Assembly (NCBI GenBank): GCA_040954595.2
Contig: CM082578.2
Span: 5,252,831-5,316,830 of the forward strand
Reading direction: 5' to 3'
Length of the DNA: 64,000 bases
Source of the DNA: Balanoglossus misakiensis
Taxonomy: Eukaryota; Animalia; Hemichordata
The stretch's first letter is position 1; each line of letters begins with the position of its first letter. The position numbers were made by a program, and so were the translations under genes. The notes beneath the pieces are model-generated. The model was not told the origin of the DNA. It did not search any database and saw only the letters and a program-made list of their open reading frames with translations. This document shows positions 18,263 through 64,000 of the stretch, one piece after another.

Positions 18263-19285
18263 ATGGTTCGGGAATTAATGGACACGCAGCGCCAGAATTT
18301 CTGGAAGGAGTCGATCGAGAAAGAAGCGTACGTTCGTCTTGCCTGGCATGAAAAGTACAGCAAAGAGTTTGCTAAAGAGTCCAGCCAGGCAATACGCCGT
18401 AAGAAGCGACCGGACATGGTACCCAAACCGGTCATGACTTTTAAACTGCCGCAGATTGACAGATCGAAAAAAGACGACAAGGCGAAGAAGGAGGCCGAAG
18501 CCAAGGCCAGTTTCGCCGCTCTGGCGCAGAAAGACCCGAACGCTTTACTGGTAGAAATGAGACCAGCTTCGTCTGGCACAAAAGGACTCCTTTACAAAGG
18601 TGAGTCAATGGGGTCGCGCTTTTATCATTAAAACAGATCAACCTGCCATTGCAGTCTTTTAACATGTTTACTGGGGGAGTAAATAAAACAGTAAATATTT
18701 CAGATAATCTATTGAGATAAGAAAAAACCGTCGAGGCAGTGGTTGGGTATTTCTTTCACTGTGTGTGTCACCACTTCGAGATTCGATAGCCCCACTGCAT
18801 GAACACCACTGTTGCCATAATTTTAGTTTTGTCCGCGTGATTTGTTCCGTGGCATTTTAATTACCCTTTCCTTCAAATGGGAGCGATTTACAGGATAAAA
18901 TTATTAATTGAAAATCACCAGCGGAGTTGAGGTAACTGAGGAACATTGCATCACAGTAGTCTAGTCTGTTGTTGGTATTGGATTTATATGAGCAATCTCT
19001 GGGCAAACCTATTAAATCGAGGAAAGCGTATTATATTACTCAGGCAGGTTTAGTGATGAATTCCATTGTCTCTCTGCAGGTTTCAGTAAACTCGGCGAAG
19101 GGAGATACGCATACCTGCAGCAGAGGAAACTGCGAAAGCCCGAGGAAAAATACGAGTTCCCGATCACAAACAGCTGGGAGTATGGCTGGCGACTGGGGGA
19201 CGTGGTCACAGAAATGAGAGCGCCACAGTTCGGTCGCTCACGCATCGTCAGGGACTCGTTTTACAGAACCAACGGAATCCTATAG
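18263..19285 (+). CDS. SPMIP1: Sperm microtubule inner protein 1 / ATP6V1FNB-like protein; 2 exons, 180 aa
   Basis: Exons 18263-18599 and 19080-19285 (phase 1, GT-AG). Motifs MDTQRQNFWKE, EMRP...LLYKGFS...GRYAYL, PEEKYEFPITNSWEYGWRLG and SFYRTNG match the family as I recall it. AATAAA at ~19320 and ~19505. Confidence 0.85.
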
Positions 19286-22200
19286 ACGATCAGCAAATTC
19301 ACCCGCCGAGCTTTTCTTTAATAAATTTACATGGACCTTGGTGGTATTTGGCACGGAGGTATACGGGGTGATATACCTGAATGGATTTGGCGATTAGCGA
19401 AACGGTGCACTGTTACATTATACATGTTATGTGTTCGAAAAGCTGTGAAAAACAAACAAAATGTAGACGATAGTTTACTTACAAGTTACAGAAGTTCGGA
19501 GTAGAATAAAATAAATCGGGATTAGAACTAGATATATTTGTCTTTGATAAAAAACGCACTCTTCCTATAATATTAGCAATAATACACTGTGTGACTGCCA
19601 ACTAGTTTTTTCTTCTGCGCATGATTTTATAATGTAAAGATTCGTTATTAGTAACCTTACACTGACAATGAAAGAAACGTTATGTTTGCAAAGTGAAATG
19701 TGTAATTACACCTGCGTTTGTTTTTCCGGGGTTTAAAACGTCCAACTTGACACTATTGATAATTGGGTTAAACCTGTATGTCTACTTGGTGTGTATATAT
19801 TTGAGTTTCTACCAAGGCATGTTTTGGTTAATCATGCTTTCCATGTTATCATGTACATGTATGTTTAATTAACATCAGCATTATACTCTCACCTGTGAGA
19901 GGAACAGATTCTAGTAACCAGAAATTTCTGGTGCAATAATAATGTTACAATGGTGCGTAATTTTGAAATATACAAGCTCTGTGTGATTGTGATTATTCTC
20001 AACTTGCTTCTGTAATCGTTTCCATGCACAAAAGGCTGACGGTGCACCCCAGTATGATCTGTTAAATCTACAAGTCAAAAGCGAGAAGGTGCTAAATCTA
20101 CCCCAGGGACAATGCTGTACTTTTTAATTTAACAAAAATAGCCAATCATGAATGTGGAAGTATTCCTGGCCAATTGTAAATCCTACGCTAGGATTTTACT
20201 CAAATCCAATCCGTCCCCGCCGCTAATATTTACCCGAGACCCGTGGCTACTCCGCTAGATTTGCAAAACATGCGCACATGATGAAGTGTGTTTTTTGAAC
20301 CAGGTAACACTATAATATCTGAGAGAATAAATTAGATGATGTAAATATCCTATCCATTTCAATCTTGAAGTGGCTGACATTTGAAATGTATTTTTTTTCA
20401 CACGTCCTTTTTTTCAAAATCTTGCATTCGATATAAAATGTCAGACAATAAATGGTCGACTTATCACGTCTCTCGAATAATAAACGCTATCATATTGTCT
20501 AAATATTCCCATTGCTCTATCACTACCACCACCCCGTACTATACTCTGGATAGCACCGACCGGCCGCCCATATCCAGACAACTTCCGTGGGCCAGTGTAA
20601 ACAGCGCCCTTTATTATTACACCTCTTATTGCATATTTTGTAAACAATGAACTTATTATAACACCTCACGATCTGTGTCACCAAGGCTTCAACTGACGTC
20701 ACTCAAGCTGTTGACGGACGTTTGTATGGAAATCGATACATGTATGTGTCGTTCATGTTTCAATCGCTTTTTTCTGACCTTTTTTTCCACGTGTCCAAGC
20801 GACAAAATCCGATTTTCTTGCACATTTGTCGGCTGTCCAGGAGGGGAAAATTAATATGACTGTTGGAAATTTGCAAAAAGTAGGAGTTAATTTTCATTTT
20901 TACTTCGACCGGGCTAGGGTCTATGGACCGGTGTATGTTTTCTTATCAGATATCGCGTGGTTCACCCCGAGTGACAAACCAAGACACTAAATCCCCGGGC
21001 TATGAATGTGTACTGGTACCAAAACTAAAGCACACCTACATGAAAGCGTATCCCATTTCAACCTCAATGATGTACAAACTCCGGTCCATATATCATTACC
21101 TATTACCCCGGTAGTATCCTTGGTGACGATTGGCACTGGTATATTTTCTGCAATTTGCGACATGCGTGCACATAAGTTATTTTGCCAGCCTCGTGTCCCC
21201 CGTTCAATTTAATATTAAAGCATTTCCTCTGACCCTGGTCACCACAATATATGTGAGTCGTTCACTCTAGCCAGTGATTTGATAATTACCGTTCATTACA
21301 ACAATTCCAGGGAGTTTCGAAAATTTATCAACTCAGCGAAAAGTATATATGATAACGCCCTCTATAGTCGGTTTCTGAGATGCTGACGATCTGTCGCACT
21401 CGACGTTTGCATGTACATGACATTATCAAGAATCCTATATTGAGAGACCTAGTTGTTTCGCCTTTGTTAAAGGTGCGCGGGGCTTGGGGGCATTGTCATA
21501 ATGGTGTTAACGTAGACACAGAAGTTTCCCTGAATCAACTTAGGACGTCTTTATAAGTATTTAGTGTGATTGCATTTGGGACAGTTCACATGGTTCACTT
21601 AATATTTGGCATAACACAAGCTGCAGAGTAATTGATGCTGAAAGCCTATACCAGAGGTTTAACTTTTAACTATCGCAGACAATGAACATTTTTGTGTTGA
21701 TTGATTGATTGGTTGGTTGCGTGATTGATTGATGCGATTAAGATCCAGCTTTTGCTCTAACATGCCTTGGCGATTAAACTACTATATTTGGAGCAGTTTT
21801 CACACCGACATACTGGTAATTATCAAATGGATATAAAAGTGTTATTTTGGTAATATCCAGCCTTTTATTGCAAAAGACACGACACGCTGACCAATTATTG
21901 TAGTTACAACAAACCCATACAAACCTTCAACACTCTTGAGATAATTCTAATAATTATACCTCATTTCCCTGTATACAGGCCCAAATGGGTATTGTTATAT
22001 TGCTTGGTAGTGTAATATGCAACTGATTCGTTTAGGAACATGTATATTTGGTTTTGTACGTTGAAAGCTTAGCTTGCGTGCATATACATGTATAGGGTAT
22101 TGTTATATCCTATTGCCGAATCATTCTCGATAATAAATAAAAACAAAATAGAGAATTAAGTGGTGCACTGGGAAATTGTGTAACGTGGCAGGTCGTCTGT

Positions 22201-22330
22201 CTCGAAACCAGTTCTATATAAACCCAATATTTTCTGCCAATCAACATTAAAACTATCCAACACCCGACAGCGCACACCACGGCTCTAAATCTAGTTTTTG
22301 CACCTGAAATACTCGCAAGTAACCGGAAAG

Positions 22331-24391
<2,061 letters not shown>

Positions 24392-26465
24392 ATGGAGCTA
24401 GACCATTGTGAAATTCATGAAGTCTTCGTCTGAGGTACGTAGGTGTTCTTTATTGCTTTGGTGTCCGAGTTTCGGAAGATTATTTTATTGATTTACAGCA
24501 GACATGGCAATATTTTTTACTATCATCACCGATATGCTTTTGTTGCCATCGCCATCTTTGTTATTGCATTCTAAACATTTGTTTTAAACATTATTGCATG
24601 CTATTTTCCTGACAAAGTCACTACAAGTAAGGTTACACAGTAGCTTTGGCGACAATTAGGGACCGGTCATTTACCTGACAGGGGGAGGGGGGCTGATATT
24701 GTTTCTGACACAAGCACATTTCTCTCGTTGACCCTACCCACATTTCATGGACCAAAGTGAACTCGTGGAAAAAATTCCCAGTTGTACATTATCTTGGTGT
24801 AACTAAAACCTGCACTGACCCCACTTACACACATCATTTTACATATGTCTATGTATACAATTCCTGACCATGTGATGATACACTGTTATCACGTGGCACC
24901 CATCACAGCTCACTAGGAAATATTGGCCATTGAGCGTAAAGACATTCTTGCACGCTCGTTTAAATTATTCCCACAAATACATGTATGTTTGACAATGTAT
25001 CGACGGACATTTGCCTTTCTGTTATTTGCTGTGCATAAACCCAATTTTCTCGTATTGTTTCAATCAACGGTATGCTACCCCCCCCCCTCCCCCATGCGCA
25101 TCAGTTCTAAGCGCGCATTGTACTTGTTGATAAACGAATTCAAATCCGGACTTTGATGTATCTTAAGGTTGCTTTGACAGTTTTAATAATGTAGGGATTA
25201 TGCATGAAATTACAATTGGTACACGTACCAAACAAATACTGAAAAGCAGTCCAATTTACAGCCACTTGACCTTTAATACATGCAATCTGGTTTCTTTCAG
25301 ACTCCGAAGAAGAATGATAACGTCTGACATCACGTTTACCTGTGACGCATAAGTGTGGCATATCGATATATTGACGTGTAGTTTTTTATTAGTAGTCATT
25401 TGTCAGGTTACGGTAATAAAACAAACATATAGCAAGAAAAAATGACCTCATGTTCCTTCTGTTATTAGTTGATTTGATTTGAATGGCATGTCGACTATGC
25501 TATAAACCCAATACGAAACACATACATGTACCTACACATCCAATACCTATACTTTTTCCATTTTTACAAGAATATGGCTCAGTTTTGGATCAATGGCTAG
25601 GCTACAAAACATTAATAAAAGATTCTCGTCGTTCATCTAAATAACACAAACAACGGAATAACCTTGTATAAGAAGTGGTTGGGACGGAAGTACACTGATA
25701 TCTTGGTGACAGTGTACAATATTGTCAGACGGAATATTGATTTTCTTGGAAGGATTGAACTGTTCTTGTATAAGAACGCATTTGTAAGAAAGGTGTTCTT
25801 TACAAAGACGGCTTTATATCAGCGCTGCACCGACGGGTCCTTTTACAGGCAGATCCGATTAGATACCTTTGGTCTCGACAACAACGGTCTCAACCAAGAC
25901 ATATGTTCTGGAATAACAATCGTGCATGTATGAAGGGAGGAAAATATTGAAGAGCGATGTTTTGGAGAAGTATGAATGACATCATTTAATATGCTGTGTC
26001 ATTGCGATTGTCACCTAATTTTAAATCTATACCCGTTATTGTTATCGGTGTCAATTTCCCTTTAGAATTCAATAAATGCGTTTAAGAGAGATAATGATAT
26101 TACTGGACGGTATTGTGAAGAGAAAATCAATGAATGTAACGTACAATTCATGTTTATAAGTGAATGGTAACTGGTTTAAAATCTGGACAGAAGAATAAAC
26201 CGCTACTTTGTGAAACAAGATCTTGACAATAGCTAGAAAATAGTTTGCATTTCATTGTTCTCCTTAATTATGTTTGTAAAAAACCCTCAAGTCTTATATT
26301 TTACTATAAAAATGCAAAAATAAACAATGCAGTTTCATAGAATCATATGAACTCTTAACACTATAATCACTAAATAGTTCCAATTATACTAGTAGCTATA
26401 TCTTAATCTGGCATGATAATGCCAATGTCGTCTGTAGAAGACTTGTCATCCCATATACTTGTTGT

Positions 26466-27316
26466 CTATTGAGGAGAAAAAGTCACTGTTTGTCGTACGT
26501 TGTCAATATCTTCTGCCTTGGACGGATCAATTTTAGAAACAATATCATGGAGCTCCTGCCATGTGGGAACGCCCACATGCGCATGCTCACTCGTCTTCTT
26601 TAGCCACGCATAAAGAATTTCTTCAGCTTTTCCCTCATCATCCGGGGTACCTTTCCCATCTGCGATGGCAGTCGCGTCCACGGCGATAGCAAATTCTTGC
26701 ACAATGGGTGCGATGGTCTTTGCAATGTTACGGATGTTTTCGGGTTTGAGAGACTCATTCTTGGACGGAGGAGACCCTTTGCATGTTTCCAACCAAGCGC
26801 GATTTTCTGAAAACCGAATACCGAGACCATCATTTCAATTCAAATCTGAAGTAATTATTATAATATTTAAGGATTTCATGTTTTACCGACGACATTCTGA
26901 TAAATAGTATGGAATTATTTGCAGATTTTGTCGCTGACCGTCAAAATTCAAAATTATATTTCTGCACTTGATAATCGTTACGTTCATGTACAAAATGTAT
27001 ATTATGCATTGTGGATATATTTAATCCCATTTATTGCATTTTATCACTGGAGTCTGATTGCTAAGACGATGCAGTGTGCTGATTAGCCATTGGTGTATTC
27101 TGTCCCAAAAGCACAAGTTAGTCGTGAACTTGAAATAATAACCTTTAGGCCTACCTGCAGAAAACTTTGTTTTAATCGAATTCCATAGCCTATCATTTGT
27201 TTCATTTAATTCCGTGACATCTTTCTTTAGTTTGGCAAGATCTGATTTGACACTTTGTATATCTCTGGATGAATGAGTCTGTAATTGGGCAAGAGTCCTT
27301 TCAACATTGTCGTATA
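26466..27316 (-). CDS. Orphan duplicate of the last two exons (coiled-coil + death domain) of the CARD-CC-DD gene; alternative 3' cassette or partial gene
   Basis: Exons 27316-27155 and 26806-26466 are open and in phase, and are paralogous to 35491-35354 and 34990-34650. No CARD exons lie upstream within this duplication unit. Confidence 0.6.
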
Positions 27317-30092
27317 CTTGGTGACACTGGAATATTTTCTGCAATTTTCGACATGCGTGCACATTATTTTATTTTATTCCCCGTTTAATTTTATAAACAT
27401 TTCCTAGTTCCCTGGGCTCCTGATGTACTTGTTCCACAGTATTTGCACGACAACGATTTACCAAAATCCGTCCGATTGCTAGGTTTTATAATTTGAATGG
27501 ATATTCGTTTTAATCGGAAACCGACTAGTGACGAGCAGGTAACCCTTGCGACATGCGTGCACATAATTTATTTTGCCAGCCTCGTGTTCCCCGTTTAATT
27601 TGATAAACATTTCATAGTTCCCTGGGCTCCTGATGCATTTGCGACAACGATTCACCGTCCGATTGCAAGGTTTTATAATTTGAATGGATATTCGTTTTAA
27701 TCGGAAAACTATATATTGTGACTAGTGACGAGCAGGTAACCCTTCAGATCCAGGAAGGTCTATAGAAATGCAATCCCACTCTAGCCAGTGATTCGAACAT
27801 TACCGCACATTTCAACAAGTCCCGGGAGTTTTCATTATTTCTAGTCGAGCGAAAAGTGTATGATAACGCCCTCTATAGTCGGTTTCTGAGATGATGATTA
27901 TGTCGCACTCGAAGTGTGCGTGTACAAGACATTATCAAGAATCCTATATTGAGAGACCTAGATTTAAAGTAGTCAATATCTATACGTATGTTTTTGGTAA
28001 CGTTGATTTGTTGTCTGTGAACATTTTCAAAAGGTAATCAAACCCCAAGGCCAGGCAGAGTATGCGAATTTTTAAACCTACAGGCAGTTGACGATGAATA
28101 TAACTTTCTACATGTGCTTGTATATCCAAAAGATATGGACTTGAGAGCTAAATAGATTTCCGCCTATTACTTTACCCCGCCTGTCATGTACACATTCAGA
28201 TTACATGTATTACAGTATTTTCATGTACAAATAGTGCCACTTGAAAAACATTAATTAAATATATTTTTCTAACAACAAAACGTACGAGAAATCTTATCGT
28301 TGATGCATTAATGGTACCTACTGTATGATCATTTTCCATGACAGTTTGTATATTCTGGCCGGAGGCTGCGCGTACTGAAAAAACCCGAAATACTTATTTC
28401 TGTACCATCCGAGGGCGCTATTTCGTTAAAAGTCGTTCAGTTGTGGCACGGACATGTGTACGGCGAGTATCTGACAAAAATGACCAATTACTGCTTGTAA
28501 TCCTACCCATTTGCGGAAAGTAATCCCCAACACAATACCTCGCCTGTCAAAACACACGCATGAAATTGTTTTACAAAATCAAAGAATGGCCATATAATAG
28601 TTAAAACTACGGTAAATTGTATTAATTGGGTAAACTTATCAATCCTCTCATCAGTCACGGTGTATCCCACAATAACACATGATAATGCGTACAATTTCAA
28701 CTACGATGTAATCTCAGAAAACGCCCCAAAAGACACAGAAGATCGCTACAAATGGGCAAATTGGACAGCAGCATCCATAAAAAAGAATAAAAAATCAAAA
28801 CGTTGCAAAGATTGGACAAATATATGTAAAGTGTACCCAAGGAACACACAAACTAATTTCCAAGGATATTTGCCGAGTACTTTTTGAGTTTTAATATTTG
28901 ACAATTTTCATGAGAAATTCACTTTGTCCAAATATGGGCAAGGTTTTACCCATTGGAACACAGACTGTTTGCACAATTAATTTGTTAAGTTGCCAATGTT
29001 TAGCACAGCTTACAGCAATAGGTATAGTTCAAATAGTGCTTTACTCTATAAGAAGTTGTTTCGCCTTTGTTAAAGGTGCGCGGGGCTTGGGGGCATTGTC
29101 ATAATGGTGTTAGCGTAGACACAGAAGTTTCCCTGAATCAACTTAGGACGTCTTTATAAGTATTTAGTGTGATTGCATTTGGGACAGTTCACATGGTTCA
29201 CTCAATATTTGGCATAACACAAGCTGCAGAGTAATTGATGCTGAAAGCCTATACCAGAGGTTTAGCTTTTAACTATCGCAGACAATGAACATTTTCGTGT
29301 TGATTGATTGGTTGCATGATTGATTGATGCGATTAAGATCCAGCTTTTACTCTAACATGCCTTGGCGATTAAACTACTATATTTGGAGCAGTTTTCACAC
29401 CGACATACTGGTAATTATCAAATGGTGTGTTATTTTGGTAATATCCAGCCTTTTATTGCAAAAAGGCACGACACGCTGACCAATTATTGTAGTTACAACA
29501 AACCCATACAAACCTTCAACACTCTTGAGATAATTCTAATAATTATACCAATATGCGTGCATGCATACATACATACATACATACATACATACATCGATTA
29601 TATAATACACAAAACAGTATTAATGTTATTTCACTGCTCATACAAATGTTAGATTTTATTGTAATCCAGAAATATGAATTGTTGAAGACACTGTATATCG
29701 GTATTGTTTTCCCATATGTTTTTTTGTGAGTCGACTTAACCATTTTACCTCGTTTCCCTGTATGCAGGCCCAAATGGGTATTGTTATATTGCTTGGTAGT
29801 GTAATATGCAACTGATTGGTTTTGGAACATGTATATTTGGTTTTGTTGAAATCTTGTATAGGGCATTGTTATATCTATTACCGAATCATTCTCGACTGTA
29901 AATAAAAAATTAGTGAATTAAGTGGTGCACTGGGAAATTGTGTAACGTGGCAGGTCGTCTGTCTCGAAACCAGTTCCATATAAACCCCATATTTTCTGCC
30001 AATCAACATTAAAACTATCCAACACCCGACAGCGCACACCACGGCTCTAAATCTAGTTTTTGCACCTGAAATACTCGCAAGTAACCGGAAAG

Positions 30093-31725
30093 ATGAAGAC
30101 TAGCGTATGTTTTATGCTCATAATGGTCTGCCTGTGCCAATTCGTTGTCAAGGTACGTTTATACGTATGTACATAGTTTAGAGACTTCCAACATTTGTAT
30201 CAACATATGTTATTTCTATTTTGTCCGGCATGTGTCTAACTTATGAACTGAATGTTAGGCTTCATAGGCGCGACGATAATTCGAGACCAGCATGTAGTTT
30301 CTTATTGAAAAAATGTAAATGATTGCAAGATAAATTAGAAGAGGCGGCAATGTAGAAACCGCTGGCCGTTTAAATCTACCAGCTTCTTTCCAGTGTACTA
30401 GTGTTCAAAAGAAATTCCCGACTTTGGTTTCGAAGTTGTACTTCCTGATTCACGAATAAATTAACTAATCTGCGCAGTATCGGTTATTAAAACAGATCCG
30501 ACATTTCCCAACAGTACCGTTCCGCAACTAAAACTACAACACGACTGGAAATACATTATGATTATTATTAAGTAGTGGTAGGTCAATGAGTATTTCTGTC
30601 TGTCCCAGAGCTGATTGAAAGAAGTTGCTTGTCATACTCATATCTGTTTTAACAGGCAGTTTTTGGTCAAAAACCAGTTTTTCCAGCACTGCTTGTAAAA
30701 TTGCTATGACACATGACACTTGATTGGCACAGTTAGTTTTTTACATTTCCATAACTGTATATAGTTGTGTCATATCTGCTTGCCAAAGTTGCCTGTGATT
30801 TTAATTCTGGTGTATACCTATATTTCTGTGTTATCCCTAAATGGGACCACAGTGTCCTTGACGCTATTTTTTCTTATATTTTAGGTATTGGCCGAGGATG
30901 ATTGCGGTAAGTCAAAGATAATGGACTATGGGTCACTCACTGTCTTATAGGGTATGAGTATCTATTCTCGTTCCACTAAATTTCAAAATATCTCCTTCCG
31001 CCTACTTCTGAACAAAAAGGACATCGGTTTGAAAAAAATGAACCAAAGCACCCCAAACACGCACACCATTTACAAAATCTACGAGACATAATTTCTCGAT
31101 GCTGTTACAATCAGATCAATACTGACTTGATCAGGGGTAACTTCTTCAACATCCCAAGGTGAGACACGGATCCACATTTGGAATACCCTGTATGAACAAG
31201 TTCTAAAACAGAATAACACTTGAGTTTTGTGTCAGCATTTGATATACGTATTCCATATTTAATATTGATATTGTCATAGACCCATGTCAAGTCAATCTAT
31301 GTGGTAATGGAGGCCAGTGTCAGGCTGTGCAGGATTCATGTACTGATTTTGTGTGCATATGCTATTCTTGCTATACGGGTCAGTACTGTGAAACAGGTAT
31401 GTTACTTTTTTAAATTGGTTGTTTATCTAAACGAACTCACTTGTATACTAGTAATGATATCTAAACGGTCCATCAGCAAGTATGTATGTATGTATGTATG
31501 TATGTATGTATGTATGTATGTATGTATGTATGTATGTATGTATGTATGTATGTATGTATGTATGTATGTATGTATGTATGTATGTATGTATGTATGTATG
31601 TATGTATGTATGTATGTATGTATGTATGTATGTATGTATGTATGTATGTATGTATGTATGTATGTATGTATGTATGTATGTATGTATGTATGTATGTATG
31701 TATGTATGTATGTATGTATGTATGT

Positions 31726-31787
<62 letters not shown>

Positions 31788-32246
31788 GTGTATGTACATG
31801 TATGTAATGTAAATTCCCTGAAAGATTGCACAAATTGTGTTCGAAAAGAATTTGACTAAAAGCAACGTGAGTCATGAACGTTAAAGCCTTGTAATTACAT
31901 TGAGTATGTCAATGACTAGTAATGCTGTTAAACTTTCTTCTCACACAGTGTTCGATCCATGCGAAAACAACCCGTGCCAAGATGGAGCTTCTTGTAGTCC
32001 CTTGCCAGGGTCATGCATCCAATACGAATGTAATTGTAAGTATCGAACAAGACTAAAAATGGTGATTTTCACCAGTTACCAATAAACAAGAAGATGTTGA
32101 AAGAAACAGTTGGTTGCACTGCTAAGACTACAATTCTAGTGACTAAATATGATAGGACTCCGTGAGATTGCATGATGGATAAATGTAATGACGACTGCAA
32201 TCCTTGGGTATTTTTCAAATCAATTTGGTCTTGTTTTTCTTCAGAG
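30093..32246 (+). CDS. Small secreted cysteine-rich EGF-like peptide, copy 2
   Basis: Exons 30093-30152, 30885-30906, 31949-32035 and 32245-32289 (T|AG stop). Differs from copy 1 at 3 residues (A/V, I/F, E/Q). TATAAA at 29979-29984. Confidence 0.7.
31480..31806. repeat. Compound (TATG)n(TG)n microsatellite, paralogous to 23704-23954
   Basis: Direct observation. Confidence 0.97.
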
Positions 32247-34133
32247 ATGGAGCTAGACCATTGTGAAATTCATGAAGTCTTCGTCTGAGGTACGTAGGTG
32301 TTCTTTATTGCTTTGGTCTCCGAGTTTCGGAAGATTATTTTATTGATTTACAGCAGACATGGCAATATTTTTTACTATCATCGCCGATATGCTTTTGTTG
32401 CCATCGCCATCTTTGTTATTGCATTCTAAACATTTGTTCTAAACATTATTGCATGCTATTTTCCTGACAAAGTCACTACAAGTAAGGTTACACAGTAGCT
32501 TTGGCGACAATTAGGGACCGGTCATTAACCTGACTGGGGGAGGGGGTTGATATTGTTTCTGACACAAGCACATTTCTCTCGTTGACCCTACCCACATTTC
32601 ATGGACCAAAGTGAACTCGTGAAAAAAAATTCCCAGTTGTACATTATCTTGGTGTAACTAAAACCTCCACCAACCCCACTCACACATATCATGTCTACTA
32701 ATACAATTAAACGGGCATGCCCATTCCTGACCATGTGACGATACACTGTTATCACGTGGCACCCACGCATCACAGCTCACTAGGAAATATTGGCAATTGG
32801 GTGTAAAGAAATTCTTGCACGCTCGTTATTCATACAAATATGTTTGACAATGTATAGACAGACATTTGCCTTTCTGTTATTTGCTGGGCATAAACCCCAT
32901 TTCTCGTACCGTTTCTATTAACGGCATACTACACCCCCATGCGCATCAGATCTAAACGCGCATTGTTATTGTTGTAAATGAATTCAAATCCGGACTTTGA
33001 TGTATCTTAAGGTTGCTTTGACAGTTTTAATAATGTAGGGATTATACATGAAATTGCAATTGGTACACAAAACAAAAATACTGAAAAGCAGTCCAAATTA
33101 CTGCCAGATGACCTTTAATGCATGCAACCCGGTTTCTTTCAGACTCCGAAGAAGAATGATAACGTCTATCTGAGATCACGTTTACCTGAGACGCATATGT
33201 GTGGCATATCGATATATTGACATGTAGTTTCTGATTAGTAGTCATTTGTCAGGTGACGGTAATAAAACGAACATATAACAAGAAAAATGACCTCATGTTC
33301 CTTCTGCTATCAATTGATTTGAATGGCATGTCGACTATGCTATAAACCCAATACCAAACACATACAGATTTTGGACGGAATATTCAAAGATAACGTTGTC
33401 ATATATGTTCTTAATTGTGAAATGTGATTTCTGGCTGGTTTTGGAGCATCGTGCCCCGATTTCCAGAAAACAGTATTGCACACTTAAGATACAACAAATA
33501 TGTTCTCGTGTCTGTTTTTCGACATGTTGATCTGTGATTGTTGGGTGAGACGAGACGTCTTCTGAAATCGTTTCGGTCGTCTCCAGTCTCACATTTCATT
33601 TCTCTATGGCTTTTCTCGTTAATTCGTCTACCTTTCAGAGTAAACAACACTGCTACTTATGATTATTTATTTTGGAAAACCCCCACAAAACAATTCTCCG
33701 AAAACATCAATACCTATATACTTTTTCAATTTATACAAGAATATGGCACAGGTTTGTATGAATGTCTAGGCTACAAAACATTAGTAAAAGATTCCTGTCG
33801 TTCATCTAAATAATACAAACAACGAAATAACATTGTAAGAAATGGTTGGGACGGAATTATATGTATATTTTGGTGACAGTGAGTAGATACCTTTGGTCTC
33901 GACAACAACGGTCTCCTGGTAAGAGTGCTTGGGATGCACCTAAAGGAAGACAGAAAATGTTGTCTTTAAATGTATAACTGTATAAAAACTGTATAAAAGG
34001 TTACTACCCTCAACAAAAATATAAAACAAAAGGGTGGCCTTTCGTCTCTGTATTCTTCAGTAAGATTTGAAATTTCTCTGGGATAATTGTGTTTTTCTTT
34101 CATGATATTAACTATGAGCGAGTATATTGTCTA

Positions 34134-34200
34134 AAACAAACAAACAAACAAACAAACAAACAAACAAACAAACAAACAAACAAACAAACAAACAAACAAA
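34134..34200. repeat. (AAAC)n microsatellite
   Basis: Direct observation. Confidence 0.95.
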
Positions 34201-34649
34201 TGATAACATACATTATGTTAATATTGTTTGGACGGTGTCAATTTCCCTTTAGAATTCAATAAACGCGTTTAAGAGAGATAATGATATTACTGGACGGTAT
34301 TGTGAAGAGAAAATCAATGAATGTAACGTACAATTCATGTTTATAAGTTAATAGTAACTGGTAATCCGGACAGAAGAATAAACCGCTACTTTGCGAAACA
34401 AGATCTTGAAAATAGCTAGAAAATAGTTTGCATTTCATTGTTCTCCTTAATTATGTTTGTAAAAAAAACCTCAAGTCTTATATTTTACTAAAAAGATGCA
34501 AAAATAAAAAATGCAGTTTCATAGAATCATATGAACTCTTAACACTATAATCACTAAATAGTTCCAATTATGCTAGTAGCTATATCTTAATCTGGCATGA
34601 TAATGCCAATGTCGTCTGTAGAAGACTTGTCATCCCATATACTTGTTGT

Positions 34650-35557
34650 CTATTGAGGATAAAAAGTCACGTTTTGTCGTAGGTCGTCAATACCCTTTGC
34701 AATGGTCGGATTAATTTTATAAACAATATCATGGAGCTCCTGCCATGTGGGAACGCCCACATGCGCATGCTCACTCGTTTTCATTAGCCACGCATTAAGA
34801 ATTTCTTCAGCTTTTCCCTCATCATCCGGGGTACCTCTCCCATCAGCGATGGCAGTCTTGTCCACGGCGATAGCAAATTCTTGCACAATGGGTGCGATGA
34901 TCTGTGCAATGTCACGGATGTTTACCTCTTTGAGAGACTCATTCTTGGACGGAGGAGACCCTTTGCATGTTTCCAACCAAGCGCGATTTTCTGAAAACCG
35001 AATACCGAGACCATCATTTCAATTCAAATCTGAAGTAATTATTATAATATTTAAGGATTTCATGTTTTACCGACGACATTCTGATAAATTGTATGGAATT
35101 ATTTGAAGATTTTGTCGCTGACCGTCAAAAATCAAAATTATATTTCTGCACTTGATAATCGTTACGTTCATGTACAAAATGTATATTATGCATTGTGGAT
35201 ATATTTAATCCCATTTATTGCATTTTATCACTGGATTTCCGATACGGAAAGTCTGATTGCTAAGACGATGCAGCGTGCTGATTAGCCATTGGTGTATTAT
35301 GTCCCAAAAGCACAAGTTAGTCGTGAACTTGAAATAATAACCTTTAGGCCTACCTGCAGAAAACTTTGTTTCAATCGAATTCCATATCCGATCATTTGTT
35401 TCTTTTAATTCCGTGAAATCTGTCTTTAGTTTGGCAAGATCTGATGAATTAGGCTGTAATTGGGCAAGAGTCCTTTCAACATTTTCATATACTGCAAGAT
35501 ATAAAATTTGTATGGCATAACAATTTTTAACGTCCAAGAATGAGTCTCTCAAAGAGG

Positions 35558-35596
<39 letters not shown>

Positions 35597-37587
35597 ATAT
35601 TTAGTCGACAGGATGGCTTGTTAAACGTACCGGGGGCGAAAAATACATTGTACTCAGGCGGTTTATCGTTGTCTTTATCAAGCTCAAAACATCGGTTAAC
35701 ATCGCGTCGATTACATAAAAACAAACATAAATTTCTCTGTCATGTGTAGCCAATACTCATAAAAATACAGACAGAAAATCAATTTACCTCTTCTCTCTGT
35801 TTGGTTGGCACTGTCAAGGAGACGGCCGTAATTTTCTTTCAGTGCCTTTAAGTCACGCGTTAGCGATTCAGTGCTGTCCTGCAAAATCTTACGTGCATCA
35901 TGCCCCGATGATATAGCTATGAAGACAAAAATAGGTGAAATTTGGAACAAGAATAGAGAGAATTTGTATGGAGGGTGTCGATACGATGATGCAGTCAAGA
36001 AACAAAATGCCATGGAAGATACATGTATCCGACTTCGTATATTTTTAACACAGTTACAGGAAATATCGAAACATTCTTGAAGAACACGCATCTTCATAGA
36101 CCATATTCTCACAGTGCTGTAGGGTTTTTATCTGTTCCTGAATATTCTTCGTCTTCTTGTCCATGTCGTCTCGAAGCCGAGTGAACTCGGAGCTCAGGGC
36201 ATCGATTCTGGTTAATACTTCCTCTCGATTGGAGTCCATCTTGTCTATCTTAGATGACAAGTTTTGCATTTGTTGTAAAACAGCGGCCATCCCACCTAAC
36301 AATTAAAAAATCATATTTCACGTTTACCTATACATTGTAGTTGTCGTCAGTATCTGAAGAGATGTTCAGAAGCGATAATTTATCCTACATTCAAGGATAC
36401 CTGCTGTGTACAGTACGTAAAAACTATTTCTCTTATATCACTTGTGTTAAATAGATATGTTACTTAATGTTAGTTGAAAAATATACTTTAAAATGACACT
36501 CACTGTTTACCTATTTCCTCGTTACAGACATATGAATGTCAATCTTTTCTTAATAAATTGAAGTCGAAATGGGTTCATTTAAATCCTCTGAAGGGGTAGG
36601 TCAATGTATATTTAAGTATAATAGACACTGACGGGGATTCACAAATGCAGTTGTACAAGATAAACGGTAAAGTGTGGTACCTAGACAAAAACATTGCCTC
36701 GTCCAGGGGTCCGAATCGCAGCTATTGGACAAGTGGATTTTGAGTGGAAGATATCGGCAGATTTTTATCAAAACCAAAATTAGTCCTCCTAAATATATTA
36801 CACATTTTAATCATAATTTGAATAAATCTGACTAAAGTCATCTACAGGGACCTATGTTAAACAAATAAATTCCACAAATAGGGGGTAAAGCAAATAAGCT
36901 TCTGTTGGAACACGGTCGAGAAAAGTTATTTTTAATCCTAGGTAAATATATTTTTCTTTTAAAATGCCGTTTCGTTATTTAGTTATTATTTGATCTCACC
37001 ATGTGGATTTTCTCTTGAAAAGCGTTCTCTGTCCAATGTTTCCAGCATCGCGTTATGGTGACCTGTTGCCTTCAATGCGTCATATAGTATAGTGTAGCCA
37101 TTGACTGTTCTTTTGAAAATCACTAAAAGATGCTCTACTCGCCCAACTTCTCCTCTCAGCTGTGAAAAATATGAGAATCTCAATTAGCACATACAAGTAA
37201 TTAATTGAACATGATAACCTTCATACATCAAGCATGACTCATATTATTGAGTCGGTTGTTACTTCAGATGTCCCTATTAACGTCTTGCAGATTGCTAGGC
37301 TTTTCGTTTGTATTGGTCAAACATAGAGACGGCAAGCATTTACCTATGTCAGGTATACTCATTGAGTATTATGGTTTAATCCTCTCTCAAGACTTTCCAT
37401 CAAACCACCTCGTATACAGTGGACTTCTAAAACCAGCATCATTACTTACTTTTAAAGCTTGATCATCTGTGATTGTTATTACATCTTGATGTTTTCTTCG
37501 GGTGTACTCGATAACCTTCGTCGTTTGTAAATTGGTGATGAAGAATTGTTTATTGGCATCCACGATTTCTTTCTGAACGGTATTCAT
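34650..37587 (-). CDS. CARD / coiled-coil / death-domain adaptor protein (RAIDD/CRADD-like architecture), paralog A
   Basis: Exons 37587-37450 and 37159-37000 (CARD-like: KEIVDANKQFFITNL...LLVIFKRTVNGYTILYDALKATGH); 36295-36113, 35916-35788, 35491-35354 (heptad-rich); 34990-34650 (DD-like: IRDIAQII...KAEEILNAWL...PTWQELHDIV). All phases are compatible. A short linker exon between 37000 and 36295 is unresolved. Confidence 0.75.
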
Positions 37588-37626
37588 ATTGATGGGATGA
37601 TTGACAGCCTCGTGTATCTAGTTATT

Positions 37627-37840: not shown

Positions 37841-40800
37841 GATAATATTAAGTTTCGGTGTAACAGCGCGGTTGAACGTCTTTCAATATGTTGAACTATT
37901 TCCTCGTTACAGGCCTATGAATATCTTTCTTAATAATTTGAAGTCAAAATGGGTTCATTTTAAAGCTCTGAAGGGATAGATCGATGTGTATTAAACGGGA
38001 CATTAGCTGTAACTTTTGGCTCTATTTCCAGTATCTTTGTTATGTGTATCAAATGCAATTTCTTACTCTATCACAAACAGCATGGTAATATACCCAGTAC
38101 TCCACTTGTTAACATAACCTCAATGTGTGTAACAGCCATTGTTATTGTTGACAAATGTATTCTACTCCGGACATGAATTCAAATTTTGCACATATAACAA
38201 TGCTCACTATATACATTTATGTAGCTACATGCTGGTATATCGCCATGTTTCAGCAATTTGAACAAGAAACTGCAGTGCATACACAAAACAAGCTGGACAA
38301 TTGGACAAGCTGTTTCTGAGCTAGAAGATTTTTATTTTGACCAAAATGAGCAAATATATTGTCCCCAAAATTATAGTTTTGAAAAATACTTAGATCATTT
38401 CCAGGGACCTGCCACACCAATCCCGAAAGTAATATTGCCAGCAGTTTTTTTCATCAGCAGTCAATTGCAGACAAACAGACGGAGAAAAGGAGGACAGATG
38501 ACGAGGGACATACAAGCTATTAAGCTCCGCGTTGCTGACAGATGACTTAACATAGCTCATATGACACGATTGAAATCAAAGTGTACAAAACTTTATGGAG
38601 GCGAACTATTAGACTGTGTGGGTGGTTAAATTTTAGGTATCTATGGCTACCCTGTTGATCGTGCAAATCTGAAGTATGAGTGGGCGAGTTAAACTAACGA
38701 TCCAGCGATTAAATGGTTGTACGCTCAGAGGGTCTGCCGGGTCGTAACCTCTACAAACGAGTCACACGTACACAACCATCGACGAAACCGAAACGTGTCT
38801 TATTATATTAAATAGGTATAAAACAATATATGACATTGCCTAGTTAAACGTCACGGTCTTAAATCTGGAACAGCTACACGGATTTATGGCAAAAGTTGAA
38901 CAGCAGTTTGCTATAAAGGAAAACGTTAAAACTACTAGTGAAGTGTAAAGAATAGCAATTCACGTCACCAAAGTTATCATTTACTAGTATGTCTTTCGCT
39001 GTTACAGCTTTGTAGCATTCGGTGCATTAAAACGTTAAACTATCGCGTTGTACTCACATTTACAGTTTTATCATTTCCTTGTGTCGCCCACTGGTGTAAA
39101 ATGGTGTAGAAATCAGTCTGTCAGGTGCTGCAGTTTCTTGTCCAGGTACTCCTACAAAAATGGCGACTATCTCATAAAGTCACATGACTAAAAGAAGTCC
39201 GTATCAGTGCTCCTCGCTACCTATGCTATATCCTACATATCATTTTGGAATGAAATGATCTCGTTTGTTCCTCCTACATTATCGATTATGTCTGTTTGCC
39301 AGGCGATAAAGATATGTTGTCACCTCTAATTTTCATATACATATATATGGTCGAAACGAGTGTCCAATGAACATATGGTGGCGCACCCACTGGTGCCACT
39401 CACTTGAAAATTGTAATTGGCCATACAAATGTATTTCGATTTTTCATAGTAAAAGTGGTTAGGTTTTTATAGTTGACTGTACACCTTTAACTATAACATA
39501 TTGCCCATCGTGTTAAACGTCACAAAATTTACAATTTTTTAAAAACTTTTTTACCATTCTAATTTTATATAAACGTAACTTGTATTACCTGGCTAGCAAC
39601 CCGTTGCTACGATAATAAATACATTTTCGCGAGATCTCGCAAAATGGGGCAAATCATCTATTCTTGATTATGTATCAGTTGTTTGGCACAAAAAGTTCAT
39701 GGGCAATACTGAAGTTCAAAGATCAGGGTGCAATACAGAGCAACGCGCTCTTGGCCTGACATCGATGCGACCAGTCCTATTGGGCCACTATACGGGTGGC
39801 GCAATACTACATATGAGTTGGATGTCTTGTGACTATACACTATACAAACGTAAAATATGTTATCAGGCTGTGGACCTGGCTATGGCCGGTGACTCTAGGT
39901 CATTCAAACGAATGGATTATATAACCAAATCTCGAATAAATTCGAGAAGTTGACATTCAAATACGCTGGACTTTTGGACATTTTAAATTGCGAAATTCGC
40001 ACACTAAATGTCGATGTTGTTAGGGACACGTAGCCACGATGTAGCATGCTGTTTATTAACAAAAACTACTTCACACTATACATATATCACCGACCAAAGC
40101 CATGTTATTTGGCATCGCTATAGCAACCTATCGATTATAAGTACTGAGTAAGGGCAAGGCAGCATTGTCTGACACGACCCCTTCACCCTTCGTTGCAAAG
40201 CCTCGACACGACCCTATCATGTGAATAGCATAGGACAACAATAAAGTAGAGTGCGCCAAAGAAATGCAATGAGTACATTAGCAACGCCACTCAGTCTGCT
40301 GTGTGTGAGTCATCTCGGGGGCCTTGTTATGCATCCAAAACAGAAAGAGACCGTACAGTGACATGTATGACCTTACGTTTAAGCGTAAACTATCCTCGCG
40401 TAATCTTGCAATAAAGTTGACCAGCGGCACAGCAATTATGTGTGTTTGGCTACTCTTGTTGGCACACAGTTTGGGATTTTTAGAAAATCATTGCTATATG
40501 TAAAATGTTTTGCCATTTGTGACTTTTTAAAAGCAGTAGTAGGTTCGAAAACGAAACCTGCTGTACCACCATAGCAAGAACATCGACGCACAACACTACT
40601 CTACCGACCCCCCCCCCTTTCAAGATAAAATGGTTCAGTCACCGACAGAAGTTATGGAGTTCAGAGCACTACTGCCCAATTTGAAATAGAAATAAATGAC
40701 TCTTGATTGAACTCGGTTCAAGCTAAAGTGTTATTTTGAAGGTTGGTTTTATTTTCAGTTTTCAATAAATGACCTGGAAATATCACCTACATAAATTGTA

Positions 40801-41082: not shown

Positions 41083-44035
41083 TCATCGCATATGATCCAC
41101 ATCATCTGCAATGCTCTGGTCCACCGTAGAAAGCACTTCGTAGAGGTCTTTCCAGGTTTTATCAAAGGTGGTGTCATCTGCCCTTTTTTTCAACCACACA
41201 TTGATGACTTCTCCCGCTTTCTCCTCGCCAAGAACGGCGTGTTTGTCCACCTGGGTTGACTCCAATTCCACTCCCAGTTTTTCGGCAAGAGGAAGCCAAA
41301 TTGGTTTGATTTTCTTCACTATTGCATGTATGTCCTCCTCGGTAATTGGGTCGGTCTGGCTGCGGCGAGTGGCGTGTCTTTCAGCGGCAACTGTGTAAAA
41401 TAATTGCACCAAAATATCAACATTTCATGGAGATTAATTTTAAACATAGAGGTAGATGAATACTGCGAAGAAAATAGTTCATAGTTTTCCAAAGTTGAAA
41501 TTGATCAATATGACATGAAAAAATCCGAGAAGGGACGCACAAAATACGGGCTTCTCTCAAATTTTGACTAACTACAGGGTTTTTACTTTGTGCTGGGGGT
41601 CGGGTGTCAAACCACATTATAATAATTACGTGCGCTGACGGTTGTACTAACTGCAACAGAATCAATGCTGTCCCCAAGAGTTGGTGTTTTCTTCCTGAAT
41701 ACACTTACGGTAAATAAACAGCAAATATAAAATATTCAATCGCTCGAATAACAACGGGAAATACCTGATGATTCTTTTAAGCTGTCTATACCCTTTCGCA
41801 GTTCGTGTATTTCTCGCCAGATGTCGCCCTTGTGATCGGAGGTACCCACCGACAGTTCGTTCAGTTTCTCGAGGACTGCCTGTATTTTTTTATGTTCGAA
41901 AGAATCTGGGAATGGTGCAACAAGATCAAAGAAAGCAAGATTACTGAGCATGCAAATGTAGAATAAATATCACCATTGCTCCTTGTGGCATCTTTGTACT
42001 TTGGCAACGGCTACAATAGTGCTATTAGATATACTAAGTTATTCCCAAGAAAACTCGGTCTGTAAACTCTCAAACGTTAATTTGATATGGAGCAACTGCA
42101 TACCTTTCTATAATGACAACACTTTTAGCTGTGTAATACAGATATCTACCTGTTTGCTGTCTATTTTCATTGAGGCTCTCACAATCCTTTTGGAATTTCT
42201 TGAATTCTTCTGTTAGTGCTTTGATACTTTCCTTTAGGGTGTTTTGTACTTTTTCGTCGGACGACAAGGCTTGAAACATACAGATAGACTCAAATTAGGC
42301 ATAGCATGTTTACTGAATACAGATACAGATGTTACATGTATGTATACGGGTGAACGAGGTTTATTCAAAACGTTTATAGTATGTACATGTACTGTGTATT
42401 ACCTTTCTCCAGGGATGTAAACCGCTCTTGCAACCGATCGATCTTGTCCCTCATGTCACTTCTAAATTCATTGAATTCAAAAGACAGTTTTTCCATTCTT
42501 TGTAACACTTCGCCTTGGTTGTCCATCTTGTCTAGTTTCATTGACATACTTTGAAGTTGTTTCAGAACAAGTTCCATGGGATCTGGAGTCGGAAAATTGT
42601 ACGGTTTGGTTGTCAACACATAAATAATTTATATGAATACCTGGTCGTTCAATCAGACAAGAAAAAAAAGTTGTGTAAATCGCTGTCTTGAATTATTTAC
42701 ACTCCTCTTAGTAAACCTACTTACCAACAGCCTCCTCCGGCATTGCCCTGTTGTGGCCGTTTGGTTTTGATGTCTCCATAGTTGCACCTGTAAAAATAGC
42801 CATTTTGTGTTTGTAGGTCTGGTAAAATAAGTTTGCAGACATGTCAACCCCTACCAGATTTGTACCTGTATTGAAAACCCCAATACTGAGCCATTGTTTA
42901 TGTTTTACAGAATAGAACAAGAAAACATAGTTGATACACAAAACAACAACCGAGAAAGTAGCCAAAGTTGGGAGTTGCTAGGGCTAGTCGACCCATAAAG
43001 ACCTTGAACTTGATGTATATAAAAGCAGTATACACCATTATACGTTGCCTCCTTGTTGTAACACACAAACTGTACATTTTTGTGACAGGATGAGCGAGAA
43101 TGCACAAATTCAATAGAAAAAGTGCCTGTTCCGGTGTTTAAACTCTACAAATGGTAATTTCGTGATTAGTATGTTACAGGATTCGAACCCGGACTTACTG
43201 GCAACAAACCAAGTGACAAGCAAGTTCGCGCACAGACCACCGCGCCAAATCCACATCATAACAAATAAGACCACGACGTAAAGGTCACGCAGGGGTCATG
43301 AGAGTGGCATATAATCAATATGATACTTACGCAAACGTCTATTAATAACATCCCATATCCGGGATACAAGAGGAAGAAAACAATGCAAGAAAAACCATCA
43401 AAGTGTAACGTGGCCCTACATGAGAACATGCCATCGAAAAAAGACTTTCATCATCATGTCATAATTCATGATCAAGGATTATATCTTTGTAAATATGTTT
43501 TTTTTTCACATTAATCTTACCCCGGATGTGCTCTTCTCTTGTCTGACGTTCTTTCTCCAAAACTTTCAACACTGTATGAGAATGGCCTGTTGCTTTCAGC
43601 ACCTCGTACAGCTTGTTATAACCCTCCGGTGTTTTTCTAAACAGGTCTAGCAAATATGATGCCTTCGCTTCTTGTTTTCGTATCTTAAAATTAAAATAAT
43701 ATCAAAGTGAACATGTACATTTTGTATTGGAGGTCTTTATTCACACAAACTGATTATAAAGTACCAGTGGTGTAAATCCTTAATAAGGTTTCAACTTTTT
43801 TACAATTTGATTTGCAACTTTTTGTTTAATTATTTCTATCAGGCCTGCATATGAAGCTGAATATTTTGCCATGTACATGGAAGTGAATTTTACTTACATT
43901 GATCGAAAAGATATCACCGTCTCTTATTACGTTTGGGTGGCGTCTTCTTGTGCACTCGACAATTTCTTTAATACGCAAATGATTGGCAAGAAACTGAAAG
44001 TTTTCGGAAAGGACTTGTTTTTGATACAAATTCAT
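41083..44035 (-). CDS. CARD / coiled-coil / death-domain adaptor protein, paralog B; 7 exons, ~370 aa
   Basis: Exons 44035-43898, 43683-43521, 42787-42725, 42582-42403, 42269-42150, 41905-41765, 41390-41083 (total 1113 nt), all GT-AG and in phase. Same exon layout as paralog A. DD-like end: IHAIVKKIKPIWLPLAEKLGV...KAGEVINVWLKK...TWKDLYEVL. Confidence 0.8.
43170..43252 (-). mobile_element. tRNA-derived SINE head
   Basis: Minus-strand A box TGGCGCGGTGG (43247-43237) and B box GGTTCGAATCC (43189-43179); no convincing cloverleaf. Confidence 0.55.
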
Positions 44036-51200: not shown

Positions 51201-51374
51201 ATTTTATTGAAGTAGAGACAATATTCAAGGAATTCGCGAAAATGTCTGAAAACCGCATATTTTTCAACCTTACATAAGCTTTACATGAAGAATTTTTCAG
51301 TAGTCCTATACGATGTATATTAATTTAAAAATGCAACGTCCTTATTGAAGCAACAAAATTGTCGTTTTGTGCAG

Positions 51375-63872: not shown

Positions 63873-64000
63873 CTTTAGGGAAAAACAACAATCATTACAA
63901 ATCAGAAATGGGGCTGGAAATCTCCACTTTTGAAGGTTCAATGTTAAATAAATTCTGTCATAGAACTAGAAAGCATCCTTGCGACCGAAAACGAAGTTCC

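What the first reader, a model, noticed from the sequence alone, without database searches (positions are those of the whole stretch)
26466..34990. Duplicated death-domain exons are far more diverged than their neighbouring intron and UTR: signature of diversifying selection
Seen: the two DD ORFs (26466-26792 vs 34650-34976) differ at 19 of 108 residues by my count, many of them charge changes (P/E, K/Q, A/K, K/M, E/K, K/I), with no stops or frameshifts. The adjacent intron (26807-27050 vs 34991-35233) and 3' flank (26330-26465 vs 34514-34649) are almost identical. The preceding exon has 8 aa changes plus an in-frame 24-nt indel, whereas the co-duplicated peptide gene has only 3 aa changes. 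Inference: positive selection on DD interaction surfaces, which also implies the orphan copy is translated.
Basis: partly seen in the sequence, partly recalled or inferred. Interest (0 to 1): 0.76.

Follow-up and report, generated by a model that had tools for sequence, protein, structure and literature searches.

The report
Fast-diverging acorn-worm death-adaptor gene duplicate
A tandem duplication, likely in an acorn worm, holds one complete gene for a predicted cell-death signalling adaptor and a headless second copy; their death-domain exons differ far more than the intron beside them, likely because both changed fast while they were working genes, so the headless copy need not be translated today.

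Summary
The two death-domain (DD) exons differ at 27 of 341 bases and 19 residues, with no stop or indel; the adjacent intron differs at 5 of 348. The duplication is real: short-read contigs bridge its junction. The right copy ends a 362-aa gene predicted to be CARD–coiled coil–DD, with uncharacterised Ptychodera relatives. The left copy lacks the first four exons and any methionine.

dN/dS is 1.7–2.0 but not significant (p 0.14–0.21), and 27 random changes give 19 residues on average. Non-coding divergence across the unit is a 0–15% mosaic, so the intron is an unusually low yardstick. The co-duplicated EGF-peptide gene has 12 residue changes, not 3. Still, frameshifts are absent, changes cluster on one face of helix 6, and the same pattern recurs in EGF and CARD exons. 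At least 7 changes arose on the intact gene's lineage. A second, 11%-diverged CARD exon occurs in the sequenced sample.

Best reading: the left copy is a remnant of a once complete, fast-evolving paralogue. Its translation is not implied. Moderate interest.

The parts
21119..27318 (.). Duplicated unit A (left): EGF-peptide gene plus the 3' end of the CARD-CC-DD gene
   Evidence: self-BLAST; global alignment; ends
27317..35493 (.). Duplicated unit B (right); holds insertions absent from A, e.g. about 1.1 kb at 27961-29053
27317..27318 (.). Junction between the units: 2-bp microhomology that is also the acceptor dinucleotide of the orphan coiled-coil exon
   Evidence: bridged by contigs in runs X1 (record 4) and X2 (record 9)
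26466..26806 (-). Orphan DD exon A (last coding exon, phase 1, intact acceptor identical to B's, no Met)
   Evidence: fold of copy B
26807..27154 (-). Intron of copy A, 5 of 348 substitutions plus a 15-nt indel against B
27155..27316 (-). Orphan coiled-coil exon A (24 nt longer than B's; weak AAG acceptor, out-of-frame AGs upstream)
34650..34990 (-). DD exon B, last coding exon of the complete gene
35354..35491 (-). Gene B exon 5 (coiled coil)
35788..35916 (-). Gene B exon 4 (coiled coil), phase 1 donor
36113..36295 (-). Gene B exon 3 (coiled coil)
37000..37159 (-). Gene B exon 2 (predicted CARD, C-terminal half)
37450..37587 (-). Gene B first coding exon (predicted CARD, N-terminal half); a second, 11%-diverged version exists in sample S1
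34922..34951 (.). Arm 1 of a perfect 30-nt inverted repeat, inside DD exon B, covering the 4-base P/E,E/V cluster
35531..35560 (.). Arm 2 of the inverted repeat, in intron 4 of gene B, 40-69 nt before exon 5
22331..24434 (+). Secreted EGF-like peptide gene, copy A (coding exons 22331-22390, 22994-23015, 23528-23644, 24098-24184; last exon end approximate)
30093..32289 (+). Secreted EGF-like peptide gene, copy B (coding exons 30093-30152, 30885-30906, 31280-31396, 31949-32035)
41083..44035 (-). Older tandem paralogue C with the same CARD-CC-DD layout (DD 25% identical to B)

Best explanation
The two death-domain exons belong to a real tandem duplication, and the left one is likely the leftover 3' end of a once complete second copy of a predicted CARD-coiled coil-death-domain adaptor gene, so its differences likely built up under protein-level selection while both copies worked. 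Shown: the duplication, the open 362-aa six-exon model of gene B, a DD fold for copy B, a CARD fold for the Ptychodera homologue's N-terminus, and the loss of four exons and every Met from copy A. Inferred: the protein would link a DD-bearing sensor or receptor to a CARD-bearing effector such as a caspase, as RAIDD does, with the coiled coil oligomerising it. After the EGF-peptide plus adaptor unit was duplicated, both copies changed rapidly on exposed DD, CARD and EGF surfaces, while patchy exchange between copies kept some introns and UTRs near-identical. A later deletion, or an exchange with the same outcome, then removed the 5' part of copy A on this haplotype. The orphan is probably silent now.
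For: Junction bridged by short-read contigs of two runs of one sample. No frameshifting indel in 765 shared coding columns against 32 in 4257 non-coding columns (expected 5.8-9.1 if neutral; P 0.003-0.0001); for DD+CC with only the orphan branch neutral, P=0.04-0.17. Changes on both lineages: 7 derived in B, including D93N, S90Y, D99G and K29Q at family-conserved sites, and 5 derived in A. Charge bias p=0.026 and clustering p=0.007; one-face pattern on helix 6, and helix-1 changes opposite the core. The exon-over-intron pattern recurs in EGF exon 3 (12 of 117 vs 3 of 223, p=0.0003). It recurs in a CARD exon the orphan does not have: a second contig with 21 differences in 191 bases at depth 21.5 beside a window-identical one at 48.8, the 12 listed differences being 10 nonsynonymous and 2 synonymous. 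Contig depths in run X2 fit about 3 CARD copies and 4-5 DD copies, as expected if another haplotype keeps a second full-length gene (rough). Allelic differences in S1 are small (0-3 in 1.7 kb upstream, 3 of 336 in the DD), so the A-B split looks older than ordinary alleles.
Against: dN/dS is not significantly above 1 in any pre-planned test; only the post hoc A vs B' comparison reaches p 0.03-0.056. Changes are not depleted at outgroup-invariant positions (3 of 17 scorable changes at 16 invariant sites, P=0.70) or at hydrophobic positions (P=0.26). Several differences are adjacent-base clusters that may be single events; one matches an inverted repeat. The tool warns that contig depth is no copy number; the second CARD contig could be an allele or lie elsewhere, and nothing links it to copy A. 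The CARD exon vs intron contrast is only p=0.053, and 9 of its 21 differences were not listed. A deletion after a full duplication and a partial duplication give the same junction, so the window alone cannot tell them apart. Partners and function are untested.
Confidence: 0.45

Rival explanations
1. Captured allele: gene B carries old, balanced alleles that differ mainly in death-fold exons. A partial tandem duplication, or later exchange with single-copy haplotypes, froze one allele's 3' end as the orphan. Selection is real but acted on alleles of one gene, and the orphan was never expressed.
For: Accounts for intact frames without orphan translation. A divergent CARD exon 1 with mostly nonsynonymous changes exists in the same sample. 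The breakpoint lies at a 2-bp microhomology. Synonymous sites in the DD (4 of 77) are above the adjacent intron (p=0.06), as expected near balanced sites.
Against: The units differ by 4.5% plus 45 indels outside exons, some of 200-1100 bp, well above the B/B' differences and above the 1.3% heterozygosity reported for P. flava (PMC4729200, passages; another species). The 2:1 depth of the CARD contigs fits an extra copy better than a heterozygote.
Confidence: 0.18
2. Neutral mosaic: the orphan has drifted since the duplication and the intact gene is under relaxed constraint. Gene conversion homogenised the intron and UTR, so the exon only looks accelerated.
For: 27 random substitutions give 19 residue changes on average and no stop in 38% of runs. 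DD synonymous divergence (5.2%) equals the non-coding mean (4.5%). 13% of non-coding windows are as diverged. No avoidance of conserved sites.
Against: No frameshift in any shared exon. Peaks fall on exons in three places in the window and again in the CARD contig. Charge bias and the one-face pattern. Conversion into a silent orphan would be free to erase the exon peak as well.
Confidence: 0.2
3. Alternative last exon (closest to the first reader): transcripts of gene B sometimes run past DD exon B and splice a phase-1 donor to the intact acceptor of DD exon A, 8.5-9 kb downstream. One CARD adaptor would then have two interchangeable DD tails kept different by selection.
For: The DD-A acceptor is identical to DD-B's and in phase with the donors of exons 4 and 5. 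A perfect 30-bp intron-exon stem is predicted to enclose exon 5 and the DD-B acceptor (z=-8.8, to which an AT repeat contributes). No AATAAA or ATTAAA lies within 980 bases of the B stop. A maintained exon peak under conversion is the opsin-type signature (PMC3924837, passages).
Against: It needs read-through across an antisense gene. The orphan's coiled-coil acceptor is poor. A-lineage changes include a proline at the start of helix 1 and a lysine at a position hydrophobic in all four outgroups.
Confidence: 0.13
4. Assembly artefact: A and B are two alleles placed in tandem.
For: No listed contig carries A-type DD letters, and none covers 35494-35550.
Against: The junction is bridged with 31 or more letters on both sides in two runs. 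The window has no gap. Contigs over the DD block are deeper than most single-unit contigs. Contigs drop variants, and both B flanks abut microsatellites.
Confidence: 0.04

Closest known systems
RAIDD/CRADD (CARD-DD adaptor of the PIDDosome)
   Same: N-terminal CARD and C-terminal DD. The DD model matches PDB 2of5_A (oligomeric death domain complex; recalled as the RAIDD chain) at Z 9.6, rmsd 2.8, 87 aligned.
   Different: A coiled-coil spacer of about 150 aa; 15% identity; no Pfam Death or CARD hit; p84 and FADD DDs score as well, so orthology is not shown.
CARD-CC family (CARD9/10/11/14; PMC5978004, passages read)
   Same: CARD followed by a coiled coil.
   Different: Ends in a DD; short (362 aa); link to Bcl10 or MALT1 untested.
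Ptychodera flava XP_070535202.1 (P0005) and P0007; Glandiceps talaboti XP_077999808.1 (P0006)
   Same: 35-38% identity in the DD. P0005 and P0007 also match the CARD and coiled-coil exons, and their longest contigs have the same length, so they may be neighbours too.
   Different: Annotated only as uncharacterised or SMC2-like; the G. talaboti record is DD-only (115 aa).
Peak of divergence in duplicates under gene conversion: primate red/green opsin exon 5 (PMC3924837, passages); mosaic divergence in tandem HMA4 copies (10.1101/2025.10.29.685298, abstract and outline)
   Same: Exons diverged between near-identical introns and UTRs in a tandem pair; mosaic divergence.
   Different: There both copies are complete and expressed; here one lacks its 5' exons, and conversion is inferred, not shown.
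Lineage-specific death-fold domain combinations in invertebrate deuterostomes (amphioxus, PMC2575513, passages)
   Same: Novel CARD/DD/DED combinations in expanded gene sets.
   Different: The CARD-CC-DD layout was not in the passages read.

Membership tests
Death domain (DD) fold | Six-helix death fold closest to DDs | tested here: met
   Model of copy B (pLDDT 71): the top 8 VIA rows are DD structures, Z 8.0-10.9; the top 2 Foldseek rows are DDs, E 0.7-1.0. Helices 1-2 are merged and the helix-3 region is low-confidence in the model. Copy A was not folded on its own.
Death domain (DD) fold | Pfam Death profile match | tested here: not met
   0 families at E<=0.1 for both copies; PDB sequence search with a 3-sequence profile found no DD.
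RAIDD/CRADD-like adaptor | N-terminal CARD | tested here: met
   Shown on homologue P0005: residues 1-99 match Apaf-1 (Z 9.5), CED-4/CED-3 (Z 8.9) and NLRC4 CARD (Z 8.7). Gene B exons 1-2 align to it (39% of 36 and 43% of 23 residues). Gene B's own CARD was not folded.
RAIDD/CRADD-like adaptor | Short linker between CARD and DD (recalled) | tested here: not met
   Three coiled-coil exons lie between them.
RAIDD/CRADD-like adaptor | Binds PIDD and caspase-2 | not tested
   No partner identified.
CARD-CC (CARD9/10/11/14) | CARD plus coiled coil, orthologous to CARD9/11, binding Bcl10 | tested here: inconclusive
   Layout is shared; a search with P0005 returned only 2 P. flava proteins among 7989 scored candidates; binding not tested.
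Gene under diversifying selection | dN/dS significantly above 1 | tested here: inconclusive
   1.74-2.02, p 0.21-0.14; pooled 1.5-1.7, p 0.19-0.085; A vs B' 3.4-3.9, p 0.056-0.030, post hoc.
Gene under diversifying selection | Changes concentrated on interaction surfaces | tested here: inconclusive
   5 of 11 positions in helix 1 and 9 of 20 in residues 93-112, 0 of 11 in helix 2; helix-6 face p 0.003-0.08, at 73-104 degrees from the hydrophobic face. Assignment to type Ia and IIb surfaces is recalled; no coordinates were available for accessibility.
Expressed alternative last exon | Spliced transcripts entering DD exon A | not testable with these tools
   Only DNA contigs were available to lay.

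The most novel reading that the evidence does not exclude
One acorn-worm CARD adaptor gene switches between two death-domain tails. A 30-bp intron-exon RNA stem hides the near DD exon and lets splicing reach the duplicated, surface-diversified DD exon 8.5-9 kb away across an antisense gene, a docking-type choice of signalling partner born from a partial duplication.
Probability: 0.1. Interest if true: 0.78.

Novelty: new variant of a known kind. Interest (0 to 1): 0.38.

Why it matters
It identifies an unannotated CARD-coiled coil-DD adaptor family in acorn worms that Pfam misses. Its death-fold exons appear to change fast and to vary in copy number even within one sample. Adaptor death folds are usually constrained by their partners (general knowledge), so fast change on both CARD and DD faces would point to conflict with pathogen inhibitors or to new sensor-adaptor pairings. 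The evolutionary signature itself, an exon peak between homogenised introns, is well known. The case is also a caution: an intact, diverged orphan exon is not evidence of translation.

Tried and rejected
No whole genome is held for this window, so other copies in the assembly could not be counted. No RNA holder was listed; this says nothing on expression. Run X3 laid nothing. The absence of A-type DD letters from contigs and the lack of cover at 35494-35550 were not used as evidence of absence: contigs drop variants, and record 9 of X2 is probably a collapsed mosaic with A flanks and mostly B-like letters. Depths of X1 were not used for dosage because its loose ends look like GATC ligation joints. 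The word-index search with DD exon B against longer proteins found 0 of 113 candidates. The ESM Atlas gave no usable hit. P0004, the top HMMER row, is a Lactobacillus repeat protein and was dropped as spurious. Alignment A2 mis-placed the exon fragments and was not used. Foldseek gave no E<=0.001 match for either model. 'No stop codon' was rejected as evidence. No CARD or upstream-exon remnant near the orphan was found by blastn of B exons 1-4 against the window. Literature searches listed no paper whose title or abstract start describes a hemichordate CARD-CC-DD family; only open-licence papers are searched and supplements were not read. Earlier-finding look-ups returned nothing. No complex prediction was run because no partner is known.
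Full report
Setting. The window is animal DNA, most likely from an acorn worm: the FBXL5 exon at 13296-13718 matches Ptychodera flava (81%), Glandiceps (72%) and Saccoglossus (69%), the 3 of 188 candidates that passed E<=1e-30. Self-comparison shows a tandem duplication of unit A (21119-27318) and unit B (27317-35493), joined at a 2-bp microhomology. Each unit holds a plus-strand gene for a secreted EGF-like peptide and the last two exons of a minus-strand gene. Only unit B continues into that gene's upstream exons.

Observation. The DD exons differ at 27 of 341 bases with no indel and at 19 residues with no stop. The intron differs at 5 of 348 and the near 3' flank at 1 of 135; exon vs intron p=3.9e-5. 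The preceding exon has 8 residue changes and a 24-nt in-frame indel. Across the unit, non-coding DNA differs at 190 of 4212 sites and is strongly overdispersed (variance 14.8, mean 4.5 per 100); 13% of 341-column windows reach 27 differences. DD synonymous sites (4 of 77) match that background.

What the gene is. Six GT-AG exons (37450-37587, 37000-37159, 36113-36295, 35788-35916, 35354-35491, 34650-34990) give an open 362-aa frame; this is a model without RNA support. Pfam finds no Death or CARD family. The model of DD copy B has DD structures in its top 8 rows, Z 8.0-10.9. HMMER found 3 hits: a spurious repeat protein, a 411-aa P. flava protein and a 115-aa G. talaboti protein; a second P. 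flava protein followed. The N-terminus of the 411-aa protein folds like Apaf-1, CED-4/CED-3 and NLRC4 CARDs (Z 8.7-9.5 for residues 1-99, in a list otherwise led by helical bundles matching its coiled coil) and aligns with exons 1-2 of gene B. An older paralogue with the same layout lies at 41083-44035. The family is thus predicted to be CARD-coiled coil-DD. An adaptor role is inferred from RAIDD-type proteins and is untested.

Is the duplication real? Contigs from two runs of one sample bridge the junction with 31 or more letters on each side. That sample may be the assembly's source, since 1.7 kb upstream is identical in X2, so it gives no population frequency. It does argue against tandem mis-assembly of alleles. 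The contigs also show a third DD haplotype, B', that differs from B at 1 replacement and 2 silent sites, each within a few bases of B-type letters. They show a second version of CARD exon 1 with 21 differences in 191 bases at depth 21.5, beside a window-identical contig at 48.8. Of the 21 differences 12 were listed: 10 nonsynonymous and 2 synonymous, no stop. Its adjoining intron contig differs at 8 of 156 (p=0.053). Taking about 22 as one copy, X2 depths fit roughly 3 CARD copies and 4-5 DD copies; the tool warns that such depths are not copy numbers, so this is a hint.

Is it positive selection? Counting gives 23 nonsynonymous and 4 synonymous differences, dN/dS 1.74-2.02, p 0.21-0.14. All shared exons pooled give 1.5-1.7, p 0.19-0.085. 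Merging adjacent-base clusters gives p 0.09-0.14 for the DD. A vs B' gives 22:2, p 0.056-0.030, post hoc. Random placement of 27 substitutions yields 19.05 residue changes and no stop in 38% of runs, and the real changes do not avoid outgroup-invariant sites (P=0.70). Adjacent-base changes can inflate such tests (10.1101/165969, search listing only), and the 4-base P/E,E/V cluster lies in a perfect 30-nt inverted repeat with intron 4 that carries the B letters, so it may be one templated event. In favour: no frameshifting indel in 765 coding columns against 32 in 4257 non-coding (AT-rich flanks may be more indel-prone); 11 of 19 changes alter charge against 36% expected (p=0.026); 10 of 19 fall in 21 codons (p=0.007); helix-6 changes lie on one face (p 0.003-0.08 over five boundary choices, chosen after seeing the data), flanking rather than opposite the core, and helix-1 changes lie opposite it (p 0.08-0.17). 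From memory, helices 1/4 and the helix 5-6 region form the type Ia and IIb surfaces. An exon-wide ratio of 1.5-2 in an intact gene that must keep its core is hard to get without some favoured changes. I put accelerated adaptive change at about 0.65, not proven.

Is the orphan translated? This does not follow. Four outgroups share A's residue more often at 7 changed sites and B's at 5, with 7 ties (outgroups are only about 35% identical), so much of the change arose on the intact gene's lineage. The orphan has no Met. Its first acceptor is an AAG made by the junction, with two upstream AGs that lead to a stop. Only splicing from gene B or an unknown exon could express it. That route is open in principle, because the DD-A acceptor is intact and in phase, and the inverted repeat is predicted to enclose exon 5 and the DD-B acceptor. 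No RNA was available to test it.

Synthesis. A full duplication followed by a deletion leaves the same junction as a partial duplication. The former best fits intact frames on both lineages, unit-wide divergence above the allelic level, and an extra diverged CARD exon at about single-copy depth (0.45). Rivals are a neutral or converted mosaic (0.20), a captured allele (0.18), an expressed alternative last exon (0.13) and mis-assembly (0.04).

Comparison and novelty. The exon peak between homogenised introns is the known opsin-type pattern (PMC3924837, passages), and mosaic divergence in tandem copies has been modelled (10.1101/2025.10.29.685298, abstract and outline). Novel death-fold combinations are common in invertebrate deuterostomes (PMC2575513, passages). 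The protein works like RAIDD by layout but fails the short-linker feature, and it shares CARD plus coiled coil with the CARD-CC family (PMC5978004, passages) but ends in a DD. Searches listed no description of this family; supplements were not read. Earlier AI notes on this genome report similar exon-focused divergence in ankyrin-ROCO-DD genes; I did not check them. Verdict: a real, modestly interesting fast-evolving adaptor duplication; selection likely, orphan translation unsupported.

Noticed in passing
window 23528-23644 and 31280-31396 (+): First EGF-like exon of the duplicated secreted peptide gene differs at 9 of 38 residues with all cysteines kept (11 nonsynonymous, 1 synonymous); a second fast-evolving product in the same unit.
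   Followed up: partly
window 34922-34951 and 35531-35560: Perfect 30-nt inverted repeat between DD exon B and intron 4, abutting an AT microsatellite; matches copy A at only 23 contiguous bases (duplex -53.7 vs -40.0 kcal/mol). Template switch or splicing element.
   Followed up: partly
window 41083-44035 (-): Older CARD-CC-DD paralogue directly upstream of gene B, with an extra small exon at about 42725-42790.
   Followed up: partly
window 37430-37620: Sample S1 holds a second version of CARD exon 1 with 21 differences in 191 bases at under half the depth: an allele or an extra copy.
   Followed up: partly
window 60824-63965 (-): Exons of another death-fold gene: DED (Pfam E=1e-6, below the gathering score) preceded by exons that look ZU5-like by eye.
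   Followed up: no
window 39058-39151 (-): Exon-like segment with good splice sites and no clear reading frame; possible 5' UTR exon of gene B.
   Followed up: no
window 27346-27744: About 200-bp tandem duplication (75% identical) right after the unit junction.
   Followed up: no
window 24184 and 32035: The second EGF-like repeat ends in a stop formed across the splice junction, leaving the repeat apparently incomplete in both copies.
   Followed up: no
window 45841-45968 and 46955-47082: 128-bp inverted repeat, 98% identical, about 1 kb apart; probably the ends of a small DNA transposon.
   Followed up: no
window 8127-13718 (-), 18218-19290 (+), about 51300-60300 (+): Neighbouring genes: FBXL5, a short conserved-looking ORF gene, and a multi-exon extracellular-protein gene resembling VWDE-type proteins by eye.
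   Followed up: no
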